From contig CAYGVI010000003.1 in the NCBI GenBank assembly GCA_964353335.1, forward strand, positions 205,694 to 229,693: a stretch of DNA of 24,000 nucleotides, written 5' to 3'. The position numbers and the translations under genes are program-made. This stretch comes from an uncultured Methanosarcinales archaeon (lineage in GTDB: Archaea; Nanobdellota; Nanobdellia; Woesearchaeales; ARS49). Of this stretch, positions 8,913 through 21,122 are shown one piece after another. A model generated the notes under the pieces. The model did no database searches, was not told where the DNA came from, and saw only the letters and a list, made by a program, of their open reading frames with translations. Position 1 is the stretch's first letter. The number at the start of each line of letters is the position of its first letter.

Positions 8913-8938
8913 GGGAGTCAAGGTCTATTTCTTTATAC

Positions 8939-9068: not shown

Positions 9069-9090
9069 TCGAACGCAGTGAGGTGAGACG

Positions 9091-9247: not shown

Positions 9248-10591
9248 ATGAGCGTTGAAATCTTTGCAGTCGGCGGTTATGGAGAGGTTGGCAGGAATAT
9301 GACTGCTGTAAAAGTTGATGACCAGGTCGTAATCTTTGACATGGGGCTCCACATGCCCAATTACATCAAGCTCACAGAGGAGGAAATGGGCGAAATAGTG
9401 AGGATTAATGAGGGAACCCTCAAGAAAGCTGACGCAGTGCCTCAGGACAGCGCAATAAAGGACTGGCGCTCCCAGGTTGTCGCTATTGTGCTTTCACACG
9501 CCCACCTTGACCATATCGGCGCTGTGCCTTATCTTGCCTCAAAATACAATGCTCCGATAATCTGCACTCCTTTTACAGCAGAAGTGCTCAAATCCATGTG
9601 CAAGGACGAGAACATCCGCATGTCCAACAAGATTGTCCAGCTTTACCCTAATCAGCGTATGACAATTGCAGACGGGCTTATCCTCGAGTTCTGCGCAATC
9701 ACCCACTCAACACCGCAGGCAGTTATTGCATTGCTTCACACCAAATATGGCGGGATTATGTACGGCAATGACTACAAGCTTGACGACCATCCTGGAATAG
9801 GAAAAAAGCCGAATTATGAGCATTTCACAAATATGGGCGACAAAGGCGCAATACTCGCGCTTATCCAGGACTGCCTTTATGCACGGGAGCCGAGAAAGAC
9901 TCCGTCAGAAGCTATTGCCCGCGACATGCTTGACGATGTCCTGCTTGGAATCAAGAGCAAGGGAAAAGCAGTGATTGTGACAACATTCGCAAGCCACATT
10001 GCGCGGTTAAAGTGCATAGCTGATTTTGGAAAGAAAATGGGCAGAAAAGTTGTCTTTATGGGCCGCTCAATCGCAAAATACAGCTGGGCTGCTGACGCTG
10101 CAGGAATCACCCAGCTCAAGAAAGATGCGGAAATACTGAAGTACAGGCGCCAGCTCGAGCAAAAGCTGAAGGAAGTGCAGGCAAAAGGAAGGGACAAATA
10201 TCTTTTGGTGATGTCTGGGCACCAGGGAGAGCCCAAGTCAGCACTCTCAAGAATCATCCGCGGCGAGCTGCATTTCAAGTTTGAGCCAGGCGACCACGTG
10301 ATTTTCTCGTGCTCAGTAATCCCTGCTGAAATCAACATCAAAAACAGGGCTGAAATGGACGAGCGGCTGAAGCAGTTGGGCGTCAGGCTTTTCACAAACA
10401 TCCACGCCTCAGGCCACTCAAGCAGGGAGGATTTGAGGGAATTCATAATGATGACAAAGCCAAAGCACATCATCCCGACCCACGGCGAGCCAAAGAAAAT
10501 GGACTCATTCATATCGCTGGCAAAGGAAATAGGCTACGCTAACAAGAATATCCACGCATTGGTCACAGGCCAAAAAGTAAAAATTGTCTAA
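9248..10591 (+). CDS. rnj: Archaeal RNase J (beta-CASP metallo-beta-lactamase ribonuclease)
   Basis: 447 aa. The N-terminus EIFAVGGYGEVGRNMT is typical of archaeal RNase J. It also has the HxHxDH motif (SHAHLDH) and the beta-CASP C-terminal motifs (HASGHSSRED, IPTHGE). Confidence 0.9.
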   Translation: MSVEIFAVGGYGEVGRNMTAVKVDDQVVIFDMGLHMPNYIKLTEEEMGEIVRINEGTLKKADAVPQDSAIKDWRSQVVAIVLSHAHLDHIGAVPYLASKYNAPIICTPFTAEVLKSMCKDENIRMSNKIVQLYPNQRMTIADGLILEFCAITHSTPQAVIALLHTKYGGIMYGNDYKLDDHPGIGKKPNYEHFTNMGDKGAILALIQDCLYAREPRKTPSEAIARDMLDDVLLGIKSKGKAVIVTTFASHIARLKCIADFGKKMGRKVVFMGRSIAKYSWAADAAGITQLKKDAEILKYRRQLEQKLKEVQAKGRDKYLLVMSGHQGEPKSALSRIIRGELHFKFEPGDHVIFSCSVIPAEINIKNRAEMDERLKQLGVRLFTNIHASGHSSREDLREFIMMTKPKHIIPTHGEPKKMDSFISLAKEIGYANKNIHALVTGQKVKIV

Positions 10592-10594
10592 AAA

Positions 10595-10635
10595 CGCCAG
10601 GCATAAGAAATTAATAAAAAATGTTATGTCTGGCG
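10595..10635. repeat. Long hairpin 1 (12-bp stem with one G-T pair, 17-nt A-rich loop)
   Basis: CGCCAGGCATAA (10595-10606) pairs with TTATGTCTGGCG (10624-10635). Confidence 0.6.
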
Positions 10636-10636
10636 G

Positions 10637-10682
10637 TTATGGCAAACGAACAATCGACAATAAAACGCGTCGTTTGCCATAA
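10637..10682. repeat. Long hairpin 2 (perfect 13-bp stem, 20-nt loop)
   Basis: TTATGGCAAACGA (10637-10649) pairs with TCGTTTGCCATAA (10670-10682). Confidence 0.65.
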
Positions 10683-10692
10683 AATAACAAAA

Positions 10693-10700
10693 TTTATATA
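10693..10700 (+). promoter_or_regulatory. TATA box for the PCNA gene
   Basis: tttatata lies 38 nt upstream of the ATG. A purine-rich SD-like run (gggggag, 10725-10731) follows, so this gene appears to have a leader. Confidence 0.55.
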
Positions 10701-10737
10701 GGTTTAACCATTCCAGAGGAGTTAAGGGGGAGAGCAA

Positions 10738-11484
10738 ATGAAACTTGTTTTGGCAGATCCAACATATCTTAAAGACAGCATAGCGGTAATTTCTGACCTT
10801 GTCAACGAAGCGCGCTTTAAAATCTCAAAAGACGGCGTTGAAATGATAGCGATGGACCCTGCGAACGTCGCAATGGTCGTCTACAAGCTCCTTTCAAGCG
10901 CATTCACTGAGTTTGACGTTCCAAAGGAGACAGACCTCGCAATCAACCTGGCAAACCTGAAGCAGGTATTGAGAAGGGTAAAGGCAAATGACATCCTTAC
11001 CCTGATGGTTACCGACGAAAACAAGCTGCAGGTAACTCTGAAGGGCAGCACCACTAGGACTTTCTCGCTGCCAATAATTGACATTGAGGAAAAGGAGCAA
11101 AGGGTCCCGAATTTGACTTTTCCTGTCAATATTACCACTGCCTCTTCTGTGCTTAATGATGCGATTGAGGATGCTGACATTGTCGCTGAGTCAGTCACTT
11201 TCTCAGCAGAGCCTGATAAGTTTTCTGTCTCTGCAGAAGGCGACTTGAGCAAGGCGCACATTGAAATCGGCCACGGCACTGACACAAAGGTCACGACAGA
11301 AAGCCCTGCCAAGGTCAAGGCAAAGTACTCGATTGAATACCTCAAGAAGATGATTCAGGCAGGCAAACTGGCAGACACAGTGAGCATAGGCTTCAACCAG
11401 GACTATCCATTGAAGCTTGAGTACAAGGTTGTTGACAGGCTCCTGCTCAGCTTTATTCTCGCGCCAAGGGTAGAAAACGACTGA
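10738..11484 (+). CDS. pcn: DNA polymerase sliding clamp (PCNA)
   Basis: 248 aa. The typical archaeal PCNA N-terminus is present (..LKDSIAVISDLVNEARFKISKDGVEMIAMDPANVAMV), and length and two-domain layout fit. Confidence 0.95.
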   Translation: MKLVLADPTYLKDSIAVISDLVNEARFKISKDGVEMIAMDPANVAMVVYKLLSSAFTEFDVPKETDLAINLANLKQVLRRVKANDILTLMVTDENKLQVTLKGSTTRTFSLPIIDIEEKEQRVPNLTFPVNITTASSVLNDAIEDADIVAESVTFSAEPDKFSVSAEGDLSKAHIEIGHGTDTKVTTESPAKVKAKYSIEYLKKMIQAGKLADTVSIGFNQDYPLKLEYKVVDRLLLSFILAPRVEND

Positions 11485-11714
11485 TGAAAATCATTGCCAT
11501 AACCCAAAGCGGAAGCCAGTACGAGCTTATTCCTGACAGGACAGGTGATGCTCCAAAGGAATTCTTCGTGAAAAAAGAAGGGTCGCCGGCATCAGAGCCT
11601 GCTGTTATGATGATCAATGTTATCAAGCATATTGAAAACCTTGTCGGCCAGCAGATAGTCCTGACGAACAATGCAAGAAGTTCTAAAGTAATTCAGATAA
11701 TAATAACAGAATAA
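11484..11714 (+). CDS. Small hypothetical protein (76 aa) translationally coupled to PCNA
   Basis: A TGATG stop/start overlap joins it to PCNA. No recognisable domain. Confidence 0.45.
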   Translation: MKIIAITQSGSQYELIPDRTGDAPKEFFVKKEGSPASEPAVMMINVIKHIENLVGQQIVLTNNARSSKVIQIIITE

Positions 11715-11733
11715 AGTAAAAATTAATTTCTGC

Positions 11734-12204
11734 TTATTTCTTGTTTCCGTAGTAGAACATCTTCTGAATGTCCACATCGCCAGGCTTCCAGTCTCCCTGC
11801 CTTGGGTGCGATACCTTTACCTCAGTCTTGAGCTCAACCTGCTTTTCCTTCTGCTTCGGCGGCTGTGCTGCCTGGGCTTTTGACAGGTCTTCGCGCAATG
11901 AATTCACTTCCATTATTACCTGATTCATCGCATTGCGGATGACGTCAAGCTCCTCTGAGAACGCCTTCTGGATTTTGTCAACCTCAATCTGGAACTGCCT
12001 TGCAGCCAATGGCTCTGCAGCAGGCGCTGCCTCTATGACCACGCTTTCCTGCGGAGTTGAATTTGTCTTGGGTATGACCTGCACCATCTGCTGTGCCTGG
12101 TTGTATGCATCTGTCGAGGAGTCTGCCATGCCGTGCTTCTTGAGTTCGTGGCTGAGCATGTTGATCCTGCGTAGTTTCTCAACGTCCATTTTATCAATCC
12201 TCAC
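11734..12204 (-). CDS. Hypothetical coiled-coil protein (156 aa)
   Basis: The GTG start overlaps the upstream stop (alternative ATG at 12189). The central segment is heptad-like (FQIEVDKIQKAFSEELDVIRNAMNQVIMEVNSLREDL). Confidence 0.5.
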   Translation of the reverse strand: MRIDKMDVEKLRRINMLSHELKKHGMADSSTDAYNQAQQMVQVIPKTNSTPQESVVIEAAPAAEPLAARQFQIEVDKIQKAFSEELDVIRNAMNQVIMEVNSLREDLSKAQAAQPPKQKEKQVELKTEVKVSHPRQGDWKPGDVDIQKMFYYGNKK

Positions 12205-12464
12205 TTGAGTTCAAAGTATCCGTCTTTTCCAAGCACAAACCTGCGCTTGACTTCCGGCGTTTCCACTTCCTGCACCTGCTCAAGAGGCCTCGCTATCGGC
12301 GTTGGAGCCGGAAGCTTCTCGCGCTTGAATGGAATGAGTGCGATAGTGCAGTGCTCGCAGTAAATCTTCCTGCCTTCCTGCTTTGCTATGCATAGCTCGC
12401 AGAGTTTTTTCCCGCACCAGTTGCAGGCGCCGTCAAATTCCCTTTTGTGTGTCGTGCATCGCAT
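12201..12464 (-). CDS. B-box-like zinc-finger protein (87 aa)
   Basis: The ligand spacing is C3-x2-H6-x7-C14-x2-C17-x4-C22-x2-C25-x10-C36-x2-C39, eight ligands in a cross-brace-like arrangement. Confidence 0.55.
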   Translation of the reverse strand: MRCTTHKREFDGACNWCGKKLCELCIAKQEGRKIYCEHCTIALIPFKREKLPAPTPIARPLEQVQEVETPEVKRRFVLGKDGYFELK

Positions 12465-12470
12465 TGTATC

Positions 12471-13217
12471 TCACCCTAATTGGTGTCCGAAATTTTCCTT
12501 TATGAACTGTATCATCATTTCATTGCCCGCAAGCTTGTATGCATGCAGTGCTGCTGTGAACAGGTTCTCGCGCAGGCAGACATCGCCGAGCGCTGAGAGC
12601 TTTTCCTTGTCTCCCGCGAGCTCATACGCCTTCTGCGCGTAGCCGAGCTGGTTGTCGCTGACGCACCTGTCTCCGACGTGGACCAGCTTTGCCGGGTTCC
12701 TTATCGCCGAAAAGACCTCAATTGCGTGGTCCCACTTGCCCCTTACGAGGCATTCCTCGCCGACTTTTGCAAGCTTGTCCACATTGCTTATCGCCCTGAA
12801 CGCCTTGATTGCGTCTCCGAGCTTTCCGTCTTCCAGACACTTGTCACCAAGCCTCATGAGCTTGACATGGTTGTCTGCCAGGTTGTAGCAGTCAACTGCA
12901 TTGCTGTAAAGGGCAACTCGCTCGTAGTCTTCGCCTATCTCGGTCAGTTTTGCCTTGTTGCCCGCAAGAATGAACGCCTTAACCGCATCATTGAGCTTGC
13001 CCTTGCGCTGGTATTCATCGCCGAGCACATTCAGGACATGGCGCCTTGTGACTTCGTTGAACATGGACAGGTTGATGTTGTCCAAGCCGCGCTCAATCAG
13101 TGTCGGCAAAATTTTCCTGAAGTTGTCTGCGTTTGAGACAGTCTCTGCATGCTTCATCTCGTTGGTTTGCTCTACTAAGTTAGAAACAATTTTGCGCATC
13201 AGCAATTCTTCGCTCAT
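12471..13217 (-). CDS. Alpha-solenoid repeat protein with six tandem ~29-aa repeats (TPR/Sel1-like periodicity)
   Basis: Example repeat units are LGDKCLEDGKLGDAIKAFRAISNVDKLAK, VGEECLVRGKWDHAIEVFSAIRNPAKLVH and VGDRCVSDNQLGYAQKAYELAGDKEKLSA. The consensus is [LV]G[DE]xCLxxGxxxxAIxAFxxxxNxxKLxx. Confidence 0.6.
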   Translation of the reverse strand: MSEELLMRKIVSNLVEQTNEMKHAETVSNADNFRKILPTLIERGLDNINLSMFNEVTRRHVLNVLGDEYQRKGKLNDAVKAFILAGNKAKLTEIGEDYERVALYSNAVDCYNLADNHVKLMRLGDKCLEDGKLGDAIKAFRAISNVDKLAKVGEECLVRGKWDHAIEVFSAIRNPAKLVHVGDRCVSDNQLGYAQKAYELAGDKEKLSALGDVCLRENLFTAALHAYKLAGNEMMIQFIKENFGHQLG

Positions 13218-13327
13218 CTCTGCACCTCTCTTTCCCGCGCGTTTTAGTACTGATTTACTACTCTACGGGGTATTTCAAAGTATTATACTAATATATAAAT
13301 GTTACTATTCCGTATACTAGAAATATT

Positions 13328-13335
13328 TTTATATT
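13328..13335 (+). promoter_or_regulatory. TATA box 22 nt upstream of the ATG at 13357
   Basis: tttatatt at leaderless spacing. Confidence 0.55.
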
Positions 13336-13356
13336 TGAGCTAAAAGAGGGTATAAT

Positions 13357-13788
13357 ATGGCAGAAGTAAAAGACGTCCTGAAAGACTGGATTGTCGAGTA
13401 TGTCAAAAACAAGGACGCTATGACCAGGCAGATTACTTCAATCCAGAAAGACGCTGAAAATGTTGATGTTTTTGTTGAAGGCACGCTGAAAAGCCAGTTT
13501 ATAATAGTCCAGCCAGAGCTCAATGACCTTGGAAAGCTTGATTCTTTGAAAGACAAGCACATTGTCCTTGTCACAGCAAACACAAAAGAGAACGCTGAAT
13601 TCCTGATAAGCAACTGGCCAGAGCTCGTCAAGTATCCTCATTTATGCGTCTACTTTGTCAATCCAAACTCTTCTATGGACAAGCGCTGGGTAATCTTCCC
13701 AGCCACCCATGACAAAATAACAGAGCGCCGCTCACTGAGAAAAGGCATAGAATCATTATACGCGACAGTTGAGCCGTGGAAGGAATAA
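13357..13788 (+). CDS. Hypothetical protein (143 aa)
   Basis: A clean ORF with a TATA at -22. No recognisable domain. Confidence 0.55.
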   Translation: MAEVKDVLKDWIVEYVKNKDAMTRQITSIQKDAENVDVFVEGTLKSQFIIVQPELNDLGKLDSLKDKHIVLVTANTKENAEFLISNWPELVKYPHLCVYFVNPNSSMDKRWVIFPATHDKITERRSLRKGIESLYATVEPWKE

Positions 13789-13815
13789 TAACTATAAAAT
13801 AGCATTTCGATGGTT

Positions 13816-13822
13816 TTTTATA
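13816..13822 (+). promoter_or_regulatory. TATA box 23 nt upstream of the ATG at 13845
   Basis: ttttata at leaderless spacing. Confidence 0.5.
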
Positions 13823-13844
13823 GATTCTAATCAGCACATAAAAT

Positions 13845-14297
13845 ATGGATTTAGAAAGTTATCTTCAAGAAAAGAAAATATGGCATAAGTTCGTTGATAA
13901 ACCTGAAACCATACACACTGCGGATGCAGCTGAAAAAGCAGGAATTGAGCTTAAAAGGGTCACAAAATCTTTAGTAGTTTTAGATCAAGATAATCGACCT
14001 ATTCTGGCAATTATTCCAGGAGACTGTAAGCTGAGCTTTGAAAAAATAAGGGCGGCTGCAAATGCAAAAAAAGTAAGATTAGTCCCTTTTGCAGAAGCAG
14101 AACAATATTCAGGATATCTGCCTGGTGCAACCCCCATGGTCTACCATAAAATTGCAATGAAAGTATTCTTAGACAAAAAATTAACACAATATGAAAACAT
14201 CTATGGCGGCGGGGGAGTAAGAACAAAACTTCTTGAACTTAAAGTCAGTGATGTAATAAATTTGAATAATGCAACAGTTGCAGATATTACAGAGTAA
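13845..14297 (+). CDS. YbaK/ProX-type aminoacyl-tRNA deacylase (trans-editing domain)
   Basis: 150 aa. The pattern is VTKSLVVLDQDNRPILAIIPGDCKLSFEKI...SGYLPGATPMV...YGGGG, typical of the YbaK/EbsC family. The first 60 nt of the gene are visibly more AT-rich than flanking genes; a second sampled line inside the gene (about 42% GC) is less so. Confidence 0.75.
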   Translation: MDLESYLQEKKIWHKFVDKPETIHTADAAEKAGIELKRVTKSLVVLDQDNRPILAIIPGDCKLSFEKIRAAANAKKVRLVPFAEAEQYSGYLPGATPMVYHKIAMKVFLDKKLTQYENIYGGGGVRTKLLELKVSDVINLNNATVADITE

Positions 14298-14307
14298 TTT
14301 TCAACCT

Positions 14308-14380
14308 GATACGGCGTGCGGGCAGCGACGAACTGCGGTCCGTCTGGTCCGCACTTGTATCTGCGGATACGGCGTGCGGG
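14308..14380. repeat. Perfect 15-nt direct repeat (gatacggcgtgcggg at 14308-14322 and 14366-14380) flanking a hairpin, followed by tRNA-like fragments
   Basis: The second copy runs into gggaatcgaacc, the reverse complement of a T-loop consensus GGTTCGATTCC. This is followed by tggtctagtggtagga, which is D-arm-like on the plus strand. The hairpin TCCGCA-cttgtatc-TGCGGA lies at 14348-14367. No complete cloverleaf can be folded by hand. Confidence 0.6.
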
Positions 14381-14417
14381 AATCGAACCACAGGTCACTG
14401 GTCTAGTGGTAGGAAGG

Positions 14418-14425
14418 TTTATATA
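14418..14425 (+). promoter_or_regulatory. TATA box 23 nt upstream of the GTG at 14448
   Basis: tttatata at leaderless spacing. Confidence 0.55.
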
Positions 14426-14447
14426 AGAATGCTGTCAATAACAGATT

Positions 14448-15494
14448 GTGGGGCGCTATATCGTCGATGAAAGGGTAAAGTTTCCGAAAGGTCTCCAAAG
14501 AAAGCTTCTTGAAAGCATAAAAGACGAGCATAATTTAACTTGGAAAGAATTTGCGGCAAGACTGGGAATTTCTGAAGGAATGCTTAGCATTGATTGGAGG
14601 CTTGAGCGGTGCACTCTTCCAAAATCGCGGATGAAACTGCTTGCTAAAATGAGTGAGAAACCTGCTGTTCGAAGAATAATTGATATGGGAAAAATTCTGC
14701 CACGCTGCTGGGGGCAAACGAAAGGCGCGATAAAAGCTTGCAAGACAATGAATATTGATCGCGTACTCACCATCACCCAAGGGATTGAGAAAACCCCCTC
14801 ATTTGCTGAATTGGTAGGCATCATTTTAGGCGATGGCCACCTTCACGAAAAGGGAATGGAAATAACTCTGAACATCTATAAAGAGGTGGGTTATGCAGCA
14901 CACGTAGCAGAACTCATCAAGACTTTATTTGGCAAAGAACCTAGAATTAGACACACACATTCAACCATACGCGTCATCTTGAATTCAAAACTGGTGGTGA
15001 AAGCTCTGAAAGAAATAGGATTGAAAACAGGCAGAAAAGGAGATCATACACGCATCCCAGAACTGTTTTGGACGGATAAAACTCTCCTCAGCCGGTGCGT
15101 ACGCGGATTAATCGACACAGACGGAGGAATCCATAAAAAAGAGCGGTTTGGAAAACGGCACATTATTGAATTCAAGAATATGTCACAGCCATTGCTTGAC
15201 GACGTTAGAAACGCGCTTGCCCTGCTCGGTTTTCAGGTCTCGCTTGGCGGACCCCATGCAATTAGGGTGCAGCATCAGAGTGAGATTAAAAAATACCTAC
15301 TCAACATAGGCACTTCAAACGGCAAAAATACCGAAATAATTGGTGAAATTTTCGCGCCAGTAGTCCAGCGGCAGGATACGAGCTTCCCAAGACCTCAAAA
15401 AAAGGTCGGTAAGAGCTTGGGACCCGGGTTCAAATCCCGGCTGGCGCATCCGCTAATTCAAGATAAAAAAATAGAACAAAATCATTCTTTTTAG
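14448..15494 (+). CDS. HTH plus double-motif LAGLIDADG endonuclease-like protein; the ORF reads through the tRNA-Gly gene
   Basis: The N-terminal HTH is LTWKEFAARLGISEGMLS. The two LAGLIDADG motifs are LVGIILGDGHL and VRGLIDTDGGI. The recognisable domain ends near 15350. The last ~47 codons are the translation of the tRNA gene and its trailer, because no stop codon intervenes. Confidence 0.75.
   Translation: MGRYIVDERVKFPKGLQRKLLESIKDEHNLTWKEFAARLGISEGMLSIDWRLERCTLPKSRMKLLAKMSEKPAVRRIIDMGKILPRCWGQTKGAIKACKTMNIDRVLTITQGIEKTPSFAELVGIILGDGHLHEKGMEITLNIYKEVGYAAHVAELIKTLFGKEPRIRHTHSTIRVILNSKLVVKALKEIGLKTGRKGDHTRIPELFWTDKTLLSRCVRGLIDTDGGIHKKERFGKRHIIEFKNMSQPLLDDVRNALALLGFQVSLGGPHAIRVQHQSEIKKYLLNIGTSNGKNTEIIGEIFAPVVQRQDTSFPRPQKKVGKSLGPGFKSRLAHPLIQDKKIEQNHSF
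15324..15330 (+). promoter_or_regulatory. TATA-like box for tRNA-Gly, located inside the LAGLIDADG ORF
   Basis: aaaaata ends 24 nt upstream of tRNA position 1. Confidence 0.4.
15354..15448 (+). tRNA. tRNA-Gly(CCC) with a 24-nt intron at 37/38 (about 15390-15413)
   Basis: Hand-folded. Acceptor GCGCCAG/CTGGCGC with discriminator A. D arm GTCC AGCGGCA GGAT. Anticodon stem CGAGC/GCTTG (one G-U pair) with loop TT-CCC-A|intron|A. T arm CCGGG TTCAAAT CCCGG. The intron contains the hairpin GACCT-caaaaaa-AGGTC. Confidence 0.8.
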
Positions 15495-15781
15495 GCAGCT
15501 TCTGCAGGAGCTTCTTCTCCTTCTTCGCCCGAATAGCTTGGTACAGCCGCCTTGGAGATTATCATTATGTCGCCCATTGCCTTTACGAGCTGGTGCGGAA
15601 CGACAACTCCCTTTGCGCTTCCAAGAACCTTGCTCAGGAACGAATTCTTTGTTGCCCTGACCCGCCATCCATAAACCTTGCTTTGCGTTAAAAGCGCCTC
15701 TTCAATATCCCCAAAATAATCGCCAGTGTCAGTGAAAACTTTCATGTCGAATGTGTCCGAGATTTTCTTCATCTTAAGCAT
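15491..15781 (-). CDS. PRC-barrel domain protein (96 aa)
   Basis: The pattern is MKVFTDTGDYFGDIEEALL...VYGWRV...VVVPHQLVKAMGDIMIISK with an acidic tail. A GGAGG SD lies 8 nt upstream of the ATG. Confidence 0.65.
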   Translation of the reverse strand: MLKMKKISDTFDMKVFTDTGDYFGDIEEALLTQSKVYGWRVRATKNSFLSKVLGSAKGVVVPHQLVKAMGDIMIISKAAVPSYSGEEGEEAPAEAA

Positions 15782-15867
15782 GTGTTATCCTCCCTCTTGA
15801 GCAGTAGTGTCATTCAGAGCGCCACAGCTATATAAATTTTGTGTTGGCTATAGAGGAATGTTTATTA

Positions 15868-16215
15868 ATGGCAGAAAACAACACAGGGAATATGGCAGGA
15901 ACAACCACACGTCGCAGGCCATTGGTGACTACAAAAAGAACCATGATAAGTGAGATATTAAAAGGCCTGAAAGACCTCAAGTTTCTTCTTGAAAAGACAA
16001 ACGACGTGAAATCCGATGATATTGAACTGTATTCGGAGACAATTAAGACCTTCAGCGTGGAAAGGATTAGGGCAACAGATACTGAGCTTACAAGGATTTC
16101 AGGAGTTCTAAAAACTGTCAAAAGATGGACAAATGACAGTGACGTACAGGTCTTGGCAGACTACCTTCTGGACCTCATAACAACCACAAAGCGGCAGTTT
16201 AATTATGAAGAGTAG
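15868..16215 (+). CDS. Hypothetical protein (115 aa from the ATG at 15868)
   Basis: The TATA box tatataaa at 15829-15836 makes the GTG at 15841 in the ORF track implausible, so the first ATG downstream was used. No recognisable domain. Confidence 0.45.
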   Translation: MAENNTGNMAGTTTRRRPLVTTKRTMISEILKGLKDLKFLLEKTNDVKSDDIELYSETIKTFSVERIRATDTELTRISGVLKTVKRWTNDSDVQVLADYLLDLITTTKRQFNYEE

Positions 16216-17065: not shown

Positions 17066-17797
17066 ATGAGCTGGGCGAACTATAAGGACAAGGTTAAGAG
17101 ATACTTTCCTTTCTCAAGAACAGAGTGGAACAACTTCATCATCCTCGTCCTTGCTTTCGCGTTCATATGGTCTTTCACGCAATGGGGCGCGGCAAATTTT
17201 GACTTTGGCTCAGGCCTGAAGAACTTTATTTTCTCTGCTATAATGATTGCTGTTATTGTTTTCATCCACCACGCAGCCCAAAGGCTGTACGGACTTTTCT
17301 TTGGCTACCGCATTGAGCACAAGATATGGTGGGCAGGACTGCTTGCCTGCGTGCTCGGCGTCCTGCTTTCAAACGGCAAAGTCATCATCCTGGCTGCAAG
17401 CGCAATGCAGGCGCACTTCCTGGCGCATCACCGCATTGGCGAGTGGCGCTATGGTGCAAGCATTTTCCAGATGGGGCTTGTTGCGTTCTCAGGCCCGATA
17501 GCGTCTGTCGTAATCGCTTTCATTTTGCAGCTTATCGCACCTGTGTTTTTCGCAGGGATGTTTGAGTTCAGCCTTTTGTTCGCGCTGTACTGCATCATCC
17601 CGATTCCGCCTTTGGACGGCGTGCATGTCTTTGCAGCCTCAAGGATTTACGGGTTTGTGTTTATTTTCACTCTGTTTGCCCTGCTCGCGTTCCTTTTGCT
17701 GTATTTTGTCGCGCAGCTGGGCATGATATGGAGCGTCATCCTCGCGCTGGTAATCGGCTTTTTGTGCTGGCTCGCGTTTGACTACATGGTGGGATAA
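17066..17797 (+). CDS. Polytopic membrane protein, site-2-protease (M50)-like, with a degenerate HExxH
   Basis: Multiple hydrophobic helices. IIPIPPLDGVHVF matches the M50 NxxPxxPLDG motif. The position expected for HExxH reads IHHAAQRL. Confidence 0.55.
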   Translation: MSWANYKDKVKRYFPFSRTEWNNFIILVLAFAFIWSFTQWGAANFDFGSGLKNFIFSAIMIAVIVFIHHAAQRLYGLFFGYRIEHKIWWAGLLACVLGVLLSNGKVIILAASAMQAHFLAHHRIGEWRYGASIFQMGLVAFSGPIASVVIAFILQLIAPVFFAGMFEFSLLFALYCIIPIPPLDGVHVFAASRIYGFVFIFTLFALLAFLLLYFVAQLGMIWSVILALVIGFLCWLAFDYMVG

Positions 17798-18135
17798 TGG
17801 ACAAAAAAGCGCAGTGGGAATGGGAAAGTTTCTGGCTTGAATACGTTGCAGGCGCATTGCTGATAATTGCGTTCTACCTTTCTGCAAGGGGCGCTTATGT
17901 TGGAGTCACTTACGCTGTTGCTTTCATCATTGGCGCAATTCTCGGAAAGTTCTGGTATGACAAGATAAGGCGCCACAGGAACACGCTTTATATCACGGTC
18001 CTGACTCTTGCGGTTATGCTTGGGATAATAATAGGCAGCATTGGCACAGACAGGAGGATAATAGTGGTCCTTTACGTAATCGGCCTGCTCCTAAGCTATG
18101 TTATCCACAAGGAGAAGTGGATCAGGAGCGCTTGA
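17797..18135 (+). CDS. Small membrane protein (112 aa, 3-4 predicted TM helices)
   Basis: A TAATG overlap joins it to the upstream gene. It has hydrophobic segments with flanking basic residues. Confidence 0.5.
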   Translation: MDKKAQWEWESFWLEYVAGALLIIAFYLSARGAYVGVTYAVAFIIGAILGKFWYDKIRRHRNTLYITVLTLAVMLGIIIGSIGTDRRIIVVLYVIGLLLSYVIHKEKWIRSA

Positions 18136-18696
18136 TTTTAACAAAGAAACTGTTTTTTCAATATTATCTGATTCTTTCAAATAAATAATGTTGCGGTGCC
18201 CTTTGTATTCAGCATAGGCGCTGCACGCAGCCCTGCAGTAATCAATGTTTTCCTCTTTCCATTTTTTTGGCTCTGACTGCCATCTTTTTCCAAGCCGGTC
18301 TTTCACTGTTGAGAAAGGCGGGTTGAGGACAATTGCGTTTGGGCTTCGCACTTTCCCGGGAAAAGCGAAAAGCGCATAATTTTTCTGGTCTTCCAGCTGT
18401 TTTTCATTAATCCACCCAAGGGAAAAATATGCTTCTGCGTAAGCAAGTGCGTCATAAATGCACCTGTTTGCCAGCACAATCCTGCCAGGGCTGTTCTCTG
18501 CGATTTCAAGCGCCTCAAAGTTCTCAATTGACCGCTGGCAGATTTTCATTGTAATCCTTTCCAGCGGGCTTGTGTGGAATACGGGTGTTTTTGTTTTCAG
18601 TTCAGGAACCAATATCTCAGGGCAGGCTTCCTGCAGTTTTTTGACAAGGGTTGTTTTTCCTGCGCCGTGAGGGCCTGAAATGAAAAAAAGGCTCAT
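18091..18696 (-). CDS. P-loop nucleoside/nucleotide-kinase-like protein
   Basis: Walker A is at the extreme N-terminus (FISGPHGAGKTTL). ANRCIYDALAYAEAYF resembles the dNK-family (D/E)RS..sd..f block. Its 3' end overlaps the convergent ORF 17797-18135 by 45 nt. Confidence 0.6.
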   Translation of the reverse strand: MSLFFISGPHGAGKTTLVKKLQEACPEILVPELKTKTPVFHTSPLERITMKICQRSIENFEALEIAENSPGRIVLANRCIYDALAYAEAYFSLGWINEKQLEDQKNYALFAFPGKVRSPNAIVLNPPFSTVKDRLGKRWQSEPKKWKEENIDYCRAACSAYAEYKGHRNIIYLKESDNIEKTVSLLKSSAPDPLLLVDNIA

Positions 18697-19670
18697 TTTG
18701 TCTCCACAGTTTCTTTTTCCTCCATCTTCAGCAGCGTTGACATAAGCGCCTTGCTGAGCCGCTTTGGAGCTTTTCCGCTGACAAAGTCATACTTTCTCTG
18801 GCTTGTTGGGAAAAGCCCCATCCTCCAGCCCCCTTTGACAGGCGCATTGTGGCTCAGGAACGCTGACATTTTTGCAAGGTCAACCATTCCTGCGACTATC
18901 TGCTTTTCAGAATCCTTTTCAAACGAATGAAATCCAGGGACATAGCCTGCATATTCGATTTCAAGCTGCCTTTGTATGTCATCCTTTCCCGCCAGGTGCG
19001 CACGGGTTATGGTAAATGAATAAATCCTGCCGTCATAATTGTCAAGGATGAATGCGTCGCCTTTTTCCTTGCGGATGTTTCCTGCATAATCCCCTCCGCC
19101 CCTGTGGACTTCAGACACTTTTTTCAAAATGTCTTCCATTGTCGCAGGATATCGCTTTTCTGTCCTCTTTATGACAAGCTGCTCATGCGGAACCCCTGTC
19201 TTTAACTGCAATGGCTGGCTTTTTTCCTTTAGGTATGTCTTGCCCATTTTTTCTATTACTACAAGGCGCTCCTCAATGCCTGAGCCAAAGAAATGGTTTG
19301 TGCCCTCTGCAATAGAATCAACAGGGTCTTTCAGGAACCTTGCGTTTCCAACTGCGGGAAAGTCAAACGCTGCAAGATAGTCTGCGATTGACGGCTCTTT
19401 TGCCCCTTGTTTTTCAGCCACAGGCCTTATGTCCAGCTTTACCTCATACTCGATGTCAGAAAATTCCTTTGGCGCTTCTTTTATTCCCTTGTGCCCAAGC
19501 ACCACCTGGATAAATCCCGCCCTGTTTGCCTCAAAAAATGTACGGTATGCGGCAACTATTTTCTCAGTGTTCTGGCTTCTGAAAAATTCAGTCAGCCCCT
19601 CACTCACCCCTGATTTCCATGCAGGCACACTGCATTCCGAATACCTCGAACTGTCATAACATCCTCCCAT
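18693..19670 (-). CDS. CYTH/triphosphate-tunnel-metalloenzyme (TTM)-like protein (325 aa)
   Basis: An ExExK signature is at residues 74-78 (DIEYEVKLD). Later charged beta-strand patterns are IKRTEKRY (compare RVEKTRY in characterised CYTH enzymes), IRKEKGDAFILDNYDG and LEIEYAGY. It overlaps the downstream kinase-like gene by 4 nt. Confidence 0.5.
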   Translation of the reverse strand: MGGCYDSSRYSECSVPAWKSGVSEGLTEFFRSQNTEKIVAAYRTFFEANRAGFIQVVLGHKGIKEAPKEFSDIEYEVKLDIRPVAEKQGAKEPSIADYLAAFDFPAVGNARFLKDPVDSIAEGTNHFFGSGIEERLVVIEKMGKTYLKEKSQPLQLKTGVPHEQLVIKRTEKRYPATMEDILKKVSEVHRGGGDYAGNIRKEKGDAFILDNYDGRIYSFTITRAHLAGKDDIQRQLEIEYAGYVPGFHSFEKDSEKQIVAGMVDLAKMSAFLSHNAPVKGGWRMGLFPTSQRKYDFVSGKAPKRLSKALMSTLLKMEEKETVETK

Positions 19671-19673
19671 TTT

Positions 19674-20225
19674 TCATCCCTCCTTGTGTTGTTGAATTAT
19701 CCAATCTATGTGCATCGCCCTTTCTTCGGGCGTCTCAACAGGAACGTGCATTGGTTTGTATCCGAATTTATTGTATGCCTTGATTATTTCCTGGTGGATT
19801 TGCTGGGCCTGCTCAGGTGTTTCGCGGCGCTGCGCATCATTTCTGAAAGGCAGTGGCTCGAGAAGGAACACAAGGTCATACCTGTTCCAGCAGTCAAGAT
19901 GCGTGCTGTGAAAGGCGTTGTCAAGTTTGTCAACATCATACACCCTGCAATATGCAAGGTTGTCAATCAAGCCCCTGTCAAGTATAACTTCAGGAATGTC
20001 TTTTATCTGGTATTCAAGTGCTTCCTGCCTGACAAAAAGTTTTGTCTGGAACATATTTTTGCTGTTCCACGGAAGGTCGCCGTGCTCTTTTGCCTCTTCT
20101 TCGCGTATCAGCTTTCTTGCCATTTCAGGCATGACAATGTAGCCAAGCCCGAGAAGCTCCTTGCACGTTGCTGTTTTTCCGCTGCACGATGTTCCGGTGA
20201 TGATGTATCTTTTTGTGTCCCTCAT
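19674..20225 (-). CDS. AAA_28/NadR-type P-loop ATPase (kinase-like)
   Basis: YIITGTSCSGKT, LGYIVMPEMARKLI, LPW, ILDRGLIDNLAYCRVY, YDLVFLLEPLPF..DAQRRE and GY....VP follow the AAA_28 block order. The start is taken at the first ATG (20225). The ORF track extends to a TTG at 20270. Confidence 0.7.
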   Translation of the reverse strand: MRDTKRYIITGTSCSGKTATCKELLGLGYIVMPEMARKLIREEEAKEHGDLPWNSKNMFQTKLFVRQEALEYQIKDIPEVILDRGLIDNLAYCRVYDVDKLDNAFHSTHLDCWNRYDLVFLLEPLPFRNDAQRRETPEQAQQIHQEIIKAYNKFGYKPMHVPVETPEERAMHIDWIIQQHKEG

Positions 20226-20291
20226 AGAAATGTATATATACTTGTAGAAAATATCCTTTTTACTGTACAAAAAATAGGCAGAGTGTTGTAT

Positions 20292-21122
20292 ATGCTAAAC
20301 AAACAGACAACAGATGAGATAATTGACCTGATAAGGCAGAAGCCGAGGGCCGTGCAGGAGGTTGCTTTTTCAATAAAGAAAAACTGGCGTACAGCAGACA
20401 GGTACATAGACATAATTGCAAAGGAAACAGGGCTGATAGCAACAAGGACTTTCAGGGAAGGAAGCAGGGGCGCGCTGAAAGTCGTTTACTGGAACGCCCT
20501 TGACCGCGCAAAAGGAAGCGCATACCAGGAATTATTATTGCAAAGGATTATCCACGGCAAAAAGAAGGAGGACTTTTCCCCTTTTGACATCTACCAGTTT
20601 GCAAGCCCTGACAAAAGGGAATCATACCTTGAATACAAGGAATTCTCAACCCACCCGCAAACCCGCTATGACAAGCTTCTTGAAGGCGCAAAACAGCAGT
20701 TATTGCTTTTCTCAGGAAACCTTTCCTGGATGGAGCTCGGGCCAAACACAAAGCAAATCCTTGAAAGCCTCGCAAGGAAAAAAGTCAGCATAAAAGTCAT
20801 CACAAGGGTTGATGTCACGTCATTGAAAAACACAAATGCAATCCTTGACATCAACAAGCGCGTTGGCTGGGATGCTGTTGAAGTAAGGCACTGCGAGCAG
20901 CCATTAAGGGCTGTAATAGTTGATGATTCATTGGTGAGCATAAAGGAAGTTCTTTCCCCTCAACACCACCGCGAACTCAAGAAAAAAACATTCATTTTCT
21001 ACAAAATTAAGGACATTGAGTGGATTAACTGGATGCAAAAGGCATTCTGGCACTTGTGGGGCCAGAGCATTGACGCCCAGACGAGGCTTGAAGCCCTGAA
21101 GACACTGCAGCCCATAGGATAA
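20292..21122 (+). CDS. wHTH regulator with a PLD-like C-terminal domain (TrmB-family-like)
   Basis: This is the in-frame ATG inside the 478-aa track ORF, whose first 202 codons are antisense to the ATPase gene. The N-terminus IIDLIRQKPRAVQEVAFSIKKNWRTADRYIDIIAKETGLI looks like a wHTH. The C-terminal half has a PLD-like pattern lacking the HxK catalytic motif (RHCEQPLRAVIVDD). Confidence 0.5.
   Translation: MLNKQTTDEIIDLIRQKPRAVQEVAFSIKKNWRTADRYIDIIAKETGLIATRTFREGSRGALKVVYWNALDRAKGSAYQELLLQRIIHGKKKEDFSPFDIYQFASPDKRESYLEYKEFSTHPQTRYDKLLEGAKQQLLLFSGNLSWMELGPNTKQILESLARKKVSIKVITRVDVTSLKNTNAILDINKRVGWDAVEVRHCEQPLRAVIVDDSLVSIKEVLSPQHHRELKKKTFIFYKIKDIEWINWMQKAFWHLWGQSIDAQTRLEALKTLQPIG

What the first reader, a model, noticed from the sequence alone, without database searches (positions are those of the whole stretch)
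18091..21122. A kinase-like / CYTH(TTM)-like / kinase-like operon sits divergent from a TrmB-like regulator
Three tightly packed minus-strand genes (a 3-nt gap, then a 4-nt overlap) encode an AAA_28/NadR-type P-loop ATPase, a 325-aa protein and a second, unrelated P-loop protein.

The 325-aa protein carries the CYTH/TTM hallmarks: ExExK at residues 74-78, IKRTEKRY, ILDNYDG and LEIEYAGY. It also has about 70 extra N-terminal residues and is larger than typical CYTH enzymes. The second P-loop protein has a dNK-like block.

Across a ~65-bp AT-rich spacer containing tatatata lies a wHTH protein with a catalytically dead PLD-like domain (TrmB-like architecture). TTM enzymes act on triphosphate substrates as NTP, thiamine-triphosphate or polyphosphate hydrolases or as class IV adenylyl cyclases. 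One bracketed by two different nucleotide-kinase-like proteins under a dedicated regulator suggests a small nucleotide or cofactor phosphorylation-dephosphorylation or signalling module. I do not recognise this as a described pathway. The last gene overlaps the convergent membrane-protein gene by 45 nt.
Basis: partly seen in the sequence, partly recalled or inferred. Interest (0 to 1): 0.65.

Follow-up and report, generated by a model that had tools for sequence, protein, structure and literature searches.

The report
Divergent triphosphate-tunnel enzyme with nucleoside-kinase partners
A small archaeon (DPANN group) carries a three-gene operon in which an undescribed, very divergent "triphosphate tunnel" enzyme sits between two nucleoside-kinase-like proteins, next to a TrmB-like regulator with a strongly conserved DNA control element; it is most likely a nucleotide salvage and pool-control module, but no activity has been tested.

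Summary
The 325-aa protein matches no Pfam, NCBIfam or PDB sequence, even as a profile. Its AlphaFold model (pLDDT 91) matches triphosphate tunnel metalloenzymes (YgiF, SaTTM, Pyrococcus CYTH, Cet1/Pct1). Its ExExK and ExE motifs are invariant down to 20% identity.

The obligate partner is the dNK-like kinase. It is adjacent in 30 of 30 complete loci across DPANN, CPR and other MAGs, and the two are fused in some proteins. The AAA_28 kinase is optional (16 of 25 loci). In sister loci the same position holds an AAA_28::canonical-CYTH fusion, a homologous kinase and a dCTP deaminase.

The divergent protein is structurally TrmB/TrmBL2-like (wHTH plus PLD-like domain). It is not dedicated to this operon: only about 1 in 6 of its homologues with enough flanking sequence neighbour the tunnel gene.

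I found a conserved bipartite element in the shared spacer. It consists of TTGTA sites exactly 44 bp apart, with GTGTTGTA next to the regulator's ATG, and occurs in 71 of 92 loci.

Best reading: a (deoxy)nucleotide salvage and homeostasis module under a TrmB-like autoregulator. It is a new variant of the known P-loop kinase plus TTM theme. Function is inferred only.

The parts
18091..18696 (-). dNK-like P-loop kinase (201 aa), the obligate partner of the tunnel protein
   Evidence: It matches Pfam dNK PF01712 (27.7 bits) and AAA_28 (33.4 bits). Invariant residues are GxxGxGKT, R47, N-R78-C-x-Y-D82 (equivalent to the dNK 'ERS' motif), lid R138 and E148. The family profile aligns end to end with deoxynucleoside and thymidylate kinases in the PDB. 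It is adjacent to the TTM-like gene in 30/30 complete loci and fused to it in P0326 and P0311. Sources name homologues 'deoxynucleoside kinase'.
18693..19670 (-). Divergent triphosphate-tunnel-metalloenzyme-like protein (325 aa). It has an N-terminal MGGCY motif, a three-helix extension (residues 17-60) and a beta-barrel core (about 68-305).
   Evidence: AF2 model pLDDT 91, pTM 0.87. Foldseek hits: YgiF 5a60 E=1.4e-6, SaTTM 7nsd E=2.6e-6 (TM 0.66 normalised by target), 1yem, 2dc4, Pct1, Cet1. E74, E76, K78, E237 and E239 are invariant. No sequence-family match.
19674..20225 (-). AAA_28 (NadR ribosylnicotinamide-kinase-type) P-loop kinase, 183 aa; first gene of the operon
   Evidence: PF13521 E=5.7e-32, full length. 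Weak hit to Mycoplasma deoxyguanosine kinase. Present in 16/25 DPANN loci that carry the TTM gene. Fused to a canonical CYTH domain in sister loci.
19678..19683 (-). Shine-Dalgarno-like GGAGGG, 7 nt before the TTM-like start codon, inside the 3' end of the AAA_28 gene
   Evidence: Seen. A GGAGGTGA-type motif lies 5-9 nt upstream of the TTM-like ATG in essentially all 27 distinct loci examined.
18702..18705 (-). Shine-Dalgarno-like GGAG, 5 nt before the dNK-like start codon; the ATGA stop/start overlap is at 18693-18696
   Evidence: Seen. This points to translational coupling within a polycistronic message (inference).
20226..20291 (.). 66-bp AT-rich divergent control region between the AAA_28 and regulator start codons
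   Evidence: Seen. The spacing of 64-67 bp is conserved in loci with this arrangement. The region holds the whole conserved bipartite element.
20233..20246 (+). Site 1 of the element: TATATATA followed by CTTGTA. The 8-mer in register with site 2 lies at 20239-20246.
   Evidence: A TTG[TC]A site lies exactly 44 bp upstream of site 2 in 57 loci. TATA.A(G/C)TTGTA columns are 78-93% conserved.
20260..20273 (+). Conserved centre of the element, TTaCTgACAAAAAA. It contains an inverted TACAA half-site.
   Evidence: Position-specific frequencies over 68 anchored loci.
20283..20290 (+). Site 2 of the element: GTGTTGTA, ending 1 nt before the regulator ATG
   Evidence: Present within 150 bp upstream of the regulator gene in 71/92 non-identical loci, at 5.75 per kb against a background of 0.071 per kb. 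96 of 114 occurrences in 807 kb of loci lie within 200 bp of a regulator start. It occurs once in the window.
20292..21122 (+). TrmB/TrmBL2-like protein (276 aa): N-terminal winged helix-turn-helix plus C-terminal PLD-like domain with an incomplete HKD motif
   Evidence: AF2 pLDDT 89.6. Foldseek hits: TrmBL2 5bpd E=8e-10, Nuc 1byr, Zucchini, TrmB 3qph/2f5t. No Pfam or NCBIfam hit. Helix residues N31-W-R-T-A35..Y38 and H200, R206, S141-G-N143 are invariant.

Best explanation
This is a polycistronic operon for nucleotide (probably deoxynucleotide) salvage and pool control in a reduced-genome DPANN archaeon. It is transcribed divergently from, and probably co-repressed with, a TrmB-like autoregulator.

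Shown or directly supported:
[quoted passage not shown] It has the ExExK and ExE metal ligands and a dense set of conserved Lys/Arg residues.
- Its fixed partner is a kinase with the deoxynucleoside-kinase motif set.
- The first gene is an AAA_28 nucleoside-kinase-type protein.
- The internal genes carry Shine-Dalgarno sites and overlapping stop/start codons.
- The shared 66-bp spacer holds a bipartite TTGTA element that travels with the regulator gene across roughly 90 loci.

Inferred:
- The kinases phosphorylate salvaged (deoxy)nucleosides or nucleotides.
- The tunnel enzyme works in physical association with the dNK-like kinase. It binds and hydrolyses a triphosphate species, either a (d)NTP end-product or inorganic triphosphate. 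This would set the flux or relieve end-product inhibition of the kinase.
- The TrmB-like protein binds the TTGTA sites through its invariant NWRTA..Y helix. It would thereby repress both its own gene and the operon, possibly in response to a phosphorylated ligand bound by the PLD-like domain.
For: TTM fold and motifs. By the criteria of PMC8233210, ExExK and ExE are both present.

Coupling to the kinase:
- The two genes are adjacent in 30/30 loci, including CPR and other lineages and two loci where the orientation is flipped.
- Rosetta-stone fusions exist: P0326 and P0311.

Kinase family.

Displacement evidence:
- In 12 loci lacking the 325-aa gene, the same slot next to the regulator holds AAA_28::CYTH (PF01928, E=5e-14).
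- This is followed by a kinase homologous to the dNK-like family (hhalign 96.6%). In 8 of these 12 loci a dCTP deaminase (PF22769, TIGR02274) follows as well.

Context:
- In L028 the pair sits between a purH-like gene and DNA polymerase B.
- The window is rich in replication and repair genes.
- The family is confined to DPANN/CPR-type genomes. De novo nucleotide synthesis is annotated in only about 25-35% of Pace-, Woese- and Aenigmarchaeota (PMC8407392).

Precedent for a physical kinase-TTM unit: AtTTM1/2 (PMC9582702).

Operon signals.

Regulator and operator. L065 has a second copy of the element with the same geometry beside the TTM gene.
Against: - No activity has been measured for any of the four proteins.
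- The tunnel protein has no detectable sequence similarity to CYTH or Cet1 profiles. The fold rests on a prediction.
- dNK membership is marginal by Pfam score. The acceptor substrate cannot be read from the sequence.
- No established salvage pathway needs a triphosphatase, so the role assigned to the tunnel enzyme is the weakest step.
- The dCTP-deaminase link comes from essentially one lineage (68-81% identity among those loci).
- The regulator neighbours many unrelated genes, including radical SAM proteins and unknowns. Its adjacency could partly reflect conserved synteny with Hef, TraB and membrane genes.
- DNA binding to the element is untested. The two TTGTA sites are direct repeats, which is unusual for a dimeric wHTH protein.
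Confidence: 0.45

Rival explanations
1. Polyphosphate or triphosphate energy module. The P-loop proteins would act as polyphosphate-dependent nucleotide kinases, like PPK2 or the thymidylate-kinase-like PPK3. The tunnel enzyme would be a tripolyphosphatase, or a Vtc4-like polyphosphate polymerase.
For: - The best structural matches are the inorganic triphosphatases YgiF and SaTTM.
- PPK3 of Sulfolobus is a heteromer of two thymidylate-kinase-like P-loop proteins encoded next to a phosphatase (PMC12995831).
- Both window kinases weakly match thymidylate-kinase families.
- Vtc4 is a TTM that synthesises polyP (PMC9582702).
Against: - The profile search of the dNK-like family against the PDB lists dNK, TMPK, guanylate kinase and NadR among its best 60, but no PPK2.
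- No PPX, PPK1 or CHAD gene appears in any of the loci examined.
- The dNK 'ERS'-type motif and the dCTP deaminase in the sister operon point to nucleoside and nucleotide substrates.
Confidence: 0.12
2. The tunnel protein is mainly a regulatory subunit and not a metabolic enzyme. It would clamp the dNK-like kinase in an inactive state until a triphosphate ligand binds, as proposed for plant AtTTM1.
For: - Kinase/TTM fusions have arisen repeatedly and independently: the TTM-like::dNK-like fusion P0326, AAA_28::CYTH, and plant UCK::CYTH.
- The AtTTM1 structure shows the TTM domain locking the kinase in an inactive conformation (PMC9582702).
Against: AtTTM1/2 have lost ExExK and ExE (PMC8233210). 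Here these residues are the most conserved in the whole family, which argues for retained catalysis.
Confidence: 0.1
3. Nucleotide second-messenger module. The tunnel enzyme would be a class IV-type cyclase, or a synthase or hydrolase of another signal. The product would be sensed by the PLD-like domain of the TrmB-like regulator.
For: - CYTH includes CyaB-type cyclases.
- The regulator keeps invariant H, R, N, S and T residues in its PLD-like domain that could bind a phosphorylated ligand.
- The operon and regulator share one control region.
Against: - The AC-IV determinant HFxxxxExExK is absent. The family has KEFxxxExExK, one residue shorter and without the His.
- The regulator is far more widespread than the operon.
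- No effector or receptor genes are linked.
Confidence: 0.08
4. Antiviral defence by nucleotide depletion or modification. Kinase-like proteins plus a (d)NTP-destroying enzyme would act together, with the TrmB-like protein playing a BrxR/CapW-like role next to variable cassettes.
For: - The distribution is patchy and includes bacterial MAGs.
- The genes next to the regulator vary: kinases, dCTP deaminase, radical SAM proteins.
- Defensive dCTP deaminases with kinase-like domains are known (my own knowledge, not checked here).
Against: - No PADLOC match for any of the four proteins, nor for the sister-operon proteins beyond P-loop noise.
- The dCTP deaminase is of housekeeping size and type.
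- The neighbours are housekeeping genes: PolB, purH, CofD, RluA, Hef, PCNA.
- No homologue was found in IMG/VR.
Confidence: 0.07
5. RNA 5'-end remodelling. The tunnel enzyme would be an RNA 5'-triphosphatase (Cet1/Pct1-like) and the P-loop proteins polynucleotide 5'-kinases.
For: Foldseek also returns Pct1, Cet1 and the vaccinia capping enzyme. The many conserved basic residues could bind a nucleic acid.
Against: - TM-scores to the Cet1 branch are much lower (<=0.34) than to small CYTH enzymes (0.57-0.66).
- The kinase family carries dNK-type motifs and not Pnk/Clp1-type motifs.
- No ligase, guanylyltransferase or methyltransferase is linked.
Confidence: 0.05

Closest known systems
CYTH/TTM superfamily triphosphatases (E. 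coli YgiF, Sulfolobus SaTTM, Pyrococcus PF0863/PH1012-type CYTH proteins)
   Same: Predicted eight-stranded tunnel fold. N-terminal ExExK and a later ExE acidic pair. Alternating Lys/Arg residues on the strands. These are the best Foldseek matches.
   Different: No detectable sequence similarity, even profile to sequence. About twice the size of a minimal CYTH protein. It has a 70-aa N-terminal helical extension with an invariant MGGCY start, and further inserted helices. It is always paired with a dNK-like kinase.
Plant AtTTM1/AtTTM2 (uridine/cytidine-kinase-like P-loop domain fused to a CYTH domain; PMC9582702)
   Same: A nucleoside-kinase-fold P-loop module physically coupled to a TTM module. 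Here the coupling is an operon, with fusion in relatives.
   Different: The plant TTM domain has lost ExExK and ExE and is catalytically incompetent; here these motifs are invariant. The kinase family differs (dNK-like or AAA_28, not UCK). The domain order is reversed in the fusion P0326. There is no transmembrane anchor.
AAA_28::CYTH - dNK-like kinase - dCTP deaminase operon of sister DPANN lineages
   Same: Same position divergent from the same TrmB-like gene, with the same bipartite element. Same AAA_28 kinase and a homologous second kinase.
   Different: The tunnel function is supplied by a canonical Pfam CYTH domain fused to AAA_28, not by the stand-alone 325-aa protein. It carries an added dCTP deaminase.
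Deoxynucleoside kinase / thymidylate kinase family (dNK PF01712; e.g. Mycoplasma dGK 2jaq)
   Same: P-loop, an R-x-x-Y-D 'ERS'-type motif, an Arg-rich lid, and an end-to-end profile alignment.
   Different: Similarity is very weak (E about 1e-5). The first motif residue is Asn and not Glu or Asp. The substrate is unknown.
TrmB / TrmBL2 archaeal regulators (PMC4158304; PDB 5bpd, 3qph)
   Same: N-terminal wHTH plus C-terminal PLD-like domain. Placed divergently next to the genes it may control.
   Different: No match to Pfam TrmB models. No sugar-binding subdomain or link to sugar metabolism. The candidate operator is two direct TTGTA repeats 44 bp apart, not the palindromic TGM-type site (the latter from my own knowledge).
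PPK3-PPX cluster of Sulfolobus (PMC12995831)
   Same: Two thymidylate-kinase-like P-loop proteins encoded next to a phosphoanhydride hydrolase.
   Different: The hydrolase there is a PPX and not a TTM. No polyP-specific features or neighbours were found here.

Membership tests
TTM / CYTH-like superfamily | Eight-stranded antiparallel beta-barrel tunnel | tested here: met
   The AF2 model (pLDDT 91) has at least 8 long strands. Foldseek gives probability 1.0 to YgiF, SaTTM, 1yem, 2dc4, Pct1 and Cet1. This is a predicted structure, not a solved one.
TTM / CYTH-like superfamily | N-terminal ExExK motif on the first strand | tested here: met
   E74-Y-E76-V-K78. Invariant in 40 close homologues and in 12 distant ones.
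TTM / CYTH-like superfamily | Second acidic ExE motif for metal coordination (PMC8233210) | tested here: met
   L-E237-I-E239-Y-A-G is invariant across the family.
TTM / CYTH-like superfamily | Significant match to the Pfam CYTH (PF01928) or Cet1-like sequence models | tested here: not met
   No Pfam or NCBIfam hit. The profile search against the PDB was empty. hhalign against YgiF and against a canonical DPANN CYTH domain gave probability <1%.
TTM / CYTH-like superfamily | Divalent-metal-dependent hydrolysis of a triphosphate substrate | not testable with these tools
   Needs a biochemical assay.
Class IV adenylyl cyclase (CyaB) | HFxxxxExExK extension of the signature (PMC8233210) | tested here: not met
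   The family has P-K-E69-F70-x-x-x-E-x-E-x-K. There is no His, and the Phe sits one residue closer.
Thiamine triphosphatase | WxRxR motif with the stacking Trp (PMC8233210) | tested here: not met
   No conserved WxRxR anywhere in alignment A1. The only conserved Trp lies in GWRM near the C-terminus.
Deoxynucleoside kinase family (PF01712) | P-loop, ERS-type motif, Arg-rich lid, and a Pfam score above gathering | tested here: met
   G8..K14-T16, R78..D82 and R138 are invariant. The Pfam score is 27.7 against a cut-off of 27, which is marginal. Full-length profile alignment to dNK and TMPK structures at E about 1e-5. Substrate not tested.
AAA_28 (NadR RNK-type kinase, PF13521) | Full-length match above gathering | tested here: met
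   111.6 bits, profile positions 1-164 of 164. Ribosylnicotinamide kinase activity itself was not tested.
TrmB family regulators | wHTH N-domain plus PLD-like C-domain architecture | tested here: met
   Foldseek hits to TrmBL2 (E=8e-10), TrmB 3qph/2f5t and PLD-fold proteins.
TrmB family regulators | Sequence match to the Pfam TrmB model PF01978 (accession as cited in PMC9426492) or to a TrmB C-terminal-domain model | tested here: not met
   No Pfam family at E<=0.1.
TrmB family regulators | Sequence-specific operator binding and ligand response | not testable with these tools
   The only evidence is comparative. The bipartite TTGTA element co-occurs with the gene in 71/92 loci, and the putative recognition helix NWRTA..Y is invariant.
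PPK2/PPK3 polyphosphate kinases | Sequence relationship to PPK2/PPK3 and linkage to polyP genes | tested here: not met
   No PPK2 entry among the best 60 PDB matches of the kinase profile. No PPX, PPK1 or CHAD genes in the loci.
Known anti-phage defence systems (PADLOC) | Match to a defence-system protein model | tested here: not met
   No hits for the four window proteins. The sister-operon proteins gave only weak P-loop noise.

The most novel reading that the evidence does not exclude
The operon and its neighbour form a closed dNTP- or triphosphate-sensing circuit peculiar to ultra-small symbionts. A previously unrecognised TTM family, in complex with a dNK-like kinase, would gate nucleoside salvage by reading or destroying the triphosphate end-product. 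The TrmB-like protein would sense the same metabolite through its degenerate PLD pocket and repress transcription from the bipartite TTGTA element. In function this would be an archaeal analogue of NrdR-type control, built from unrelated parts.
Probability: 0.12. Interest if true: 0.75.

Novelty: new variant of a known kind. Interest (0 to 1): 0.55.

Why it matters
DPANN archaea and CPR bacteria live on scavenged building blocks, and most of their conserved 'hypothetical' proteins are unexplained. This work gives a fold, a catalytic signature and an obligate partner to one such family. About 145 proteins were found by the indexed search, and 112 representatives at 50% identity among 1.84 billion proteins.

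It also shows that coupling between a nucleoside-kinase module and a triphosphate-tunnel module has arisen at least three times: in plants, in the DPANN AAA_28::CYTH fusion, and in this pair. That makes the unresolved question of what TTM domains do for kinases testable with small soluble proteins.

In addition, it yields a candidate regulator-operator pair (the invariant NWRTA..Y helix and GTGTTGTA) conserved across a large part of DPANN. That is a rare handle on transcriptional control in organisms that cannot be cultured.

Tried and rejected
- Sequence-based classification of the 325-aa protein all failed. This covered Pfam, NCBIfam, phmmer and profile searches against the PDB, and hhalign against E. 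coli YgiF and a canonical CYTH domain. Only structure prediction plus Foldseek worked.
- The exhaustive profile search of 1.84 billion representatives never reached classical CYTH proteins, so it could not bridge the families. It did reveal the fusion proteins.
- I looked for a conserved third partner in the distant loci L026-L031. The neighbours differ (PolB, purH-like, CofD, RluA, unknowns), so none was found.
- Defence role: PADLOC was negative and IMG/VR had no relatives.
- Cyclase and thiamine triphosphatase roles: the motif tests were negative.
- 'Dedicated regulator': rejected after the survey of 80 metagenomic regulator loci.
- The bacterial-type promoter and terminator scan is not informative for an archaeon.
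- The Iyer & Aravind 2002 CYTH paper could not be retrieved. Statements about it rest on citations within PMC8233210.
- The conserved N-terminal MGG is not an RNA-level signal, because the Gly codons vary at the third position.

Full report
**1. What is in the sequence**

The region holds three tightly packed minus-strand genes and one divergent plus-strand gene.
- dNK-like protein: 18091-18696, 201 aa.
- 325-aa protein: 18693-19670.
- AAA_28 protein: 19674-20225, 183 aa.
- Divergent protein: 20292-21122, 276 aa.

There is a 3-nt gap between the AAA_28 and 325-aa genes. An ATGA stop/start overlap joins the 325-aa and dNK-like genes. The dNK-like gene overlaps the convergent membrane ORF 17797-18135 by 45 nt.

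Two ORF-list entries are artefacts. The TTG start at 20270 for AAA_28 and the 478-aa GTG ORF on the plus strand run through the conserved intergenic element or antisense to AAA_28. Homologues begin at the ATGs I use.

Both internal genes have Shine-Dalgarno-like motifs. GGAGGG lies 7 nt before the 325-aa gene and GGAG lies 5 nt before the dNK-like gene. A GGAGGTGA-type motif precedes the 325-aa gene in essentially all 27 distinct loci examined.

The organism is a DPANN archaeon. Homologues come from Woese-, Pace-, Nano- and Aenigmarchaeota MAGs. The window also encodes Hef, PCNA, GyrA, ScpB, RNase J and an intron-sized tRNA-Trp.

**2. The 325-aa protein**

It matches nothing by sequence. Pfam, NCBIfam, phmmer against the PDB and a 40-sequence profile against the PDB are all empty.

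The family is small: 145 hits in the indexed search. An exhaustive profile search found 112 representatives at 50% identity among 1.84 billion proteins. All named members are 'hypothetical protein'.

The AlphaFold2 model built on the alignment is confident (pLDDT 91, pTM 0.87). It shows three N-terminal helices (residues 17-60) followed by a barrel of long strands.

Foldseek against the PDB returns TTM-fold proteins at probability 1.0:
- E. coli YgiF, E=1.4e-6.
- Sulfolobus SaTTM, E=2.6e-6, TM 0.66 normalised by target.
- The Pyrococcus CYTH proteins 1yem and 2dc4.
- The RNA triphosphatases Pct1 and Cet1, the vaccinia capping enzyme, Mediator Med18/20 and mouse thiamine triphosphatase, all with lower TM-scores.

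E74, E76, K78, E237 and E239 are invariant in the 40-sequence alignment and in distant members at 20-28% identity. K141, K148, K150, K168, R169, R173, K201, K203, R215, R292 and K293 are invariant in the 40-sequence alignment; of these, K201, R215 and K293 remain nearly invariant among the distant members.

By the criteria of the SaTTM study, ExExK and ExE are both present. The cyclase-specific HFxxxxExExK and the thiamine-triphosphatase WxRxR are absent.

I conclude that this is a catalytically equipped, very divergent TTM. It is closer to the small CYTH branch than to the Cet1 branch. It is not a member of Pfam CYTH by sequence: hhalign against YgiF and against a canonical DPANN CYTH domain gave no signal.

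**3. The partners**

AAA_28 is unambiguous (PF13521, E=5.7e-32).

The 201-aa protein scores just above the Pfam dNK threshold (27.7 bits against 27). It also matches AAA_28 and thymidylate-kinase models weakly.
- Its family keeps the P-loop, an invariant Arg47, an N-R78-C-x-Y-D82 block equivalent to the dNK 'ERS' motif, and a lid with invariant R138 and E148.
- The family profile aligns end to end with deoxynucleoside and thymidylate kinases, with no PPK2 among the best 60 matches listed.
- NCBI and JGI call homologues 'deoxynucleoside kinase'.

The two window kinases are similar pairwise only at the P-loop.

**4. Gene-neighbourhood survey**

A scan of one genome per GTDB species found 31 loci encoding a relative of the 325-aa protein.
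- The dNK-like gene is adjacent in all 30 loci that extend beyond the gene. This includes distant versions in a Liptonbacteria (CPR) genome, two other bacterial MAGs and two other archaea. It also includes two loci where the kinase is on the opposite strand.
- Two proteins from the exhaustive search are fusions of the tunnel domain with the dNK-like kinase: P0326 (465 aa) and P0311.
- AAA_28 is present in 16 of the 25 DPANN-type loci.
- The divergent regulator is present in 24 of the 25 DPANN-type loci.

The obligate unit is therefore the tunnel protein plus the dNK-like kinase.

**5. The divergent protein**

It has no Pfam or NCBIfam hit. Its model (pLDDT 89.6) matches TrmBL2 best (E=8e-10). 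Next come the PLD-fold proteins Nuc, Zucchini and FAM83, then TrmB itself.

H200 is invariant, but the residue two positions on is mostly Glu and not Lys.

It is not a dedicated regulator. Its family is much larger: 1062 hits, and at least 467 metagenomic loci. Among 36 metagenomic loci with at least 2.5 kb of upstream sequence, only 6 carry the tunnel gene. Many have only AAA_28, and many have unrelated genes. In loci lacking the operon the regulator still sits with Hef, TraB and the membrane genes.

**6. A conserved control element (new observation)**

I aligned the 150 bp upstream of the regulator gene from 92 non-identical loci. This reveals a roughly 56-bp element: TATA.A(G/C)TTGTA - N13 - TTaCTgACAAAAAA - N - CA.AGTGTTGTA.
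- GTGTTGTA is present in 71 of 92 upstream regions, at 5.75 per kb against a background of 0.071 per kb.
- A second TTG[TC]A lies exactly 44 bp upstream of it in 57 loci.
- Of 114 occurrences of the 8-mer in 807 kb of loci, 96 lie within 200 bp of a regulator start.
- A relaxed two-site pattern gives the same picture.

In the window, site 2 is 20283-20290, 1 nt before the ATG. AAA_28 starts 13 nt beyond site 1. The 8-mer occurs only once in the 24-kb window.

The site-2-to-ATG distance is bimodal. It is either 1-2 nt or 40-44 nt, and in the latter case a TTAAATA box lies in between.

In L065 the tunnel and kinase genes are co-directional with the regulator. There, a second full copy of the element sits upstream of the tunnel gene. 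Its site 2 faces a ferredoxin, peroxiredoxin and superoxide dismutase operon. The operon is therefore again on the site-1 side of an element.

The regulator's putative recognition helix, N31-W-R-T-A35..Y38, is invariant. I infer that the element is the regulator's operator. The regulator would then control its own gene and whatever is transcribed divergently from it. Binding is untested.

**7. Displacement by a canonical CYTH domain**

In 12 loci without the 325-aa gene (L037, L041-L051), the AAA_28 gene next to the regulator is about 350 aa. Pfam shows AAA_28 plus a canonical CYTH domain (PF01928, E=5.4e-14), with EIEKK and EYVEIE motifs.

Downstream lies a 161-174 aa P-loop protein in 8 of them. 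It is homologous to the window's dNK-like family (hhalign 96.6%, E=6.7e-10). After that comes a dCTP deaminase (PF22769; TIGR02274 at 82.9 bits).

No locus has both the stand-alone tunnel gene and the CYTH fusion. The same slot between an AAA_28 kinase and a dNK-like kinase is thus filled either by the 325-aa protein or by a textbook CYTH domain. This is independent support for the fold assignment, and it ties the system to deoxynucleotide metabolism. Caveat: the 12 loci are one fairly tight lineage.

**8. Mechanism**

Established by sequence, structure prediction and comparison:
- The enzyme classes.
- The operon organisation.
- The obligate coupling of the pair.
- The conserved cis-element.

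Inferred:
- The kinases phosphorylate salvaged (deoxy)nucleosides or nucleotides.
- The tunnel enzyme acts in a complex with the dNK-like kinase on a triphosphate species, either a (d)NTP end-product or PPPi. This would tune flux.

Several observations favour a nucleotide reading:
- The dNK motif set.
- The dCTP deaminase in the sister operon.
- The purH-like/PolB context in L028.
- The replication and repair genes in the window.
- The restriction of the family to DPANN/CPR-type genomes. De novo nucleotide synthesis is annotated in only about 25-35% of Pace-, Woese- and Aenigmarchaeota (PMC8407392).

The plant AtTTM1 structure shows that a TTM domain can clamp a P-loop kinase (PMC9582702). There the catalytic motifs are lost; here they are invariant.

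I give this reading 0.45. The rivals are:
- A polyphosphate/PPPi module on the PPK3 precedent (PMC12995831): 0.12.
- A purely regulatory tunnel subunit: 0.10.
- A signalling module: 0.08.
- Defence by nucleotide depletion: 0.07. PADLOC and IMG/VR were negative.
- RNA 5'-end processing: 0.05.

**9. Novelty and verdict**

It is wrong on 'dedicated regulator' and on the trio being the unit.

I found no paper describing this family, the AAA_28::CYTH fusion or the regulator's motif.

The finding is a new variant of a known kind: the P-loop kinase plus TTM theme, here with an undescribed TTM family. Interest is moderate (0.55). The parts are recognisable and the biology is plausible rather than startling. 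The family is uncharacterised and tightly defined, and it now comes with clear, cheap experiments and a candidate regulator-operator pair for DPANN.

Noticed in passing
window 19656-19670 (-), residues 1-5 of the 325-aa protein; also L001-L025: The N-terminus M-G-G-[C/S]-Y is nearly invariant in DPANN homologues, while the Gly codons vary at the third position. This points to protein-level selection. Residues 1-7 are disordered in the model, and the motif is absent from the CPR-type homologues. It resembles a eukaryotic N-terminal acylation start (MGxC). No archaeal equivalent is known to me, and it remains unexplained.
   Followed up: partly
L037, L041-L051 (e.g. L045 2847-4918): A sister operon sits divergent from the same regulator. 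It encodes an AAA_28::canonical-CYTH fusion (about 350 aa). In 8 of these 12 loci a dNK-like kinase homologue and a dCTP deaminase follow. This architecture appears to be undescribed.
   Followed up: partly
L065 1804-3332: A second full copy of the bipartite TTGTA element lies upstream of a ferredoxin, peroxiredoxin and superoxide dismutase operon, divergent from the tunnel-kinase-regulator genes. This hints that the regulon may include oxidative-stress genes.
   Followed up: partly
window 14448-15494 (+) and 15354-15448 (+): A 95-nt tRNA-Trp (probably intron-containing) lies entirely inside the 3' end of a 348-aa ORF that carries a LAGLIDADG_3 domain. Either the ORF is over-extended or a homing-endonuclease-like gene abuts the tRNA.
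   Followed up: no
L036, L041, L046, L047, L087, L088, L097 upstream of the regulator gene: In loci lacking the kinase operon, the regulator's divergent neighbours include small radical SAM proteins and several unannotated families (clusters c5, c6, c11, c16). The regulator sits beside a variable gene slot.
   Followed up: partly
L033, L035, L077, L080, L084, L085, L102: Hef, TraB and the two membrane-protein genes that flank the operon in the window also neighbour the regulator gene in loci without the operon. The AAA_28/tunnel/kinase cassette therefore looks like an insertion into an older synteny block.
   Followed up: partly
L028 5475-11600: A purH-like fragment (MGS plus the start of AICARFT), the tunnel protein, the dNK-like kinase and an intein-containing family B DNA polymerase all lie on one strand in a non-DPANN-type archaeal MAG.
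   Followed up: no
L026 5504-6660: Two tandem copies of the dNK-like kinase lie on the strand opposite to the tunnel-protein gene.
   Followed up: no
window 1-16000: The window is dense in DNA replication and repair genes: GyrA 1706-4171(-), AlkD-like 4307-5002(-), ScpB 5159-6496(-), RNase J 9248-10591(+) and PCNA 10738-11484(+).
   Followed up: no
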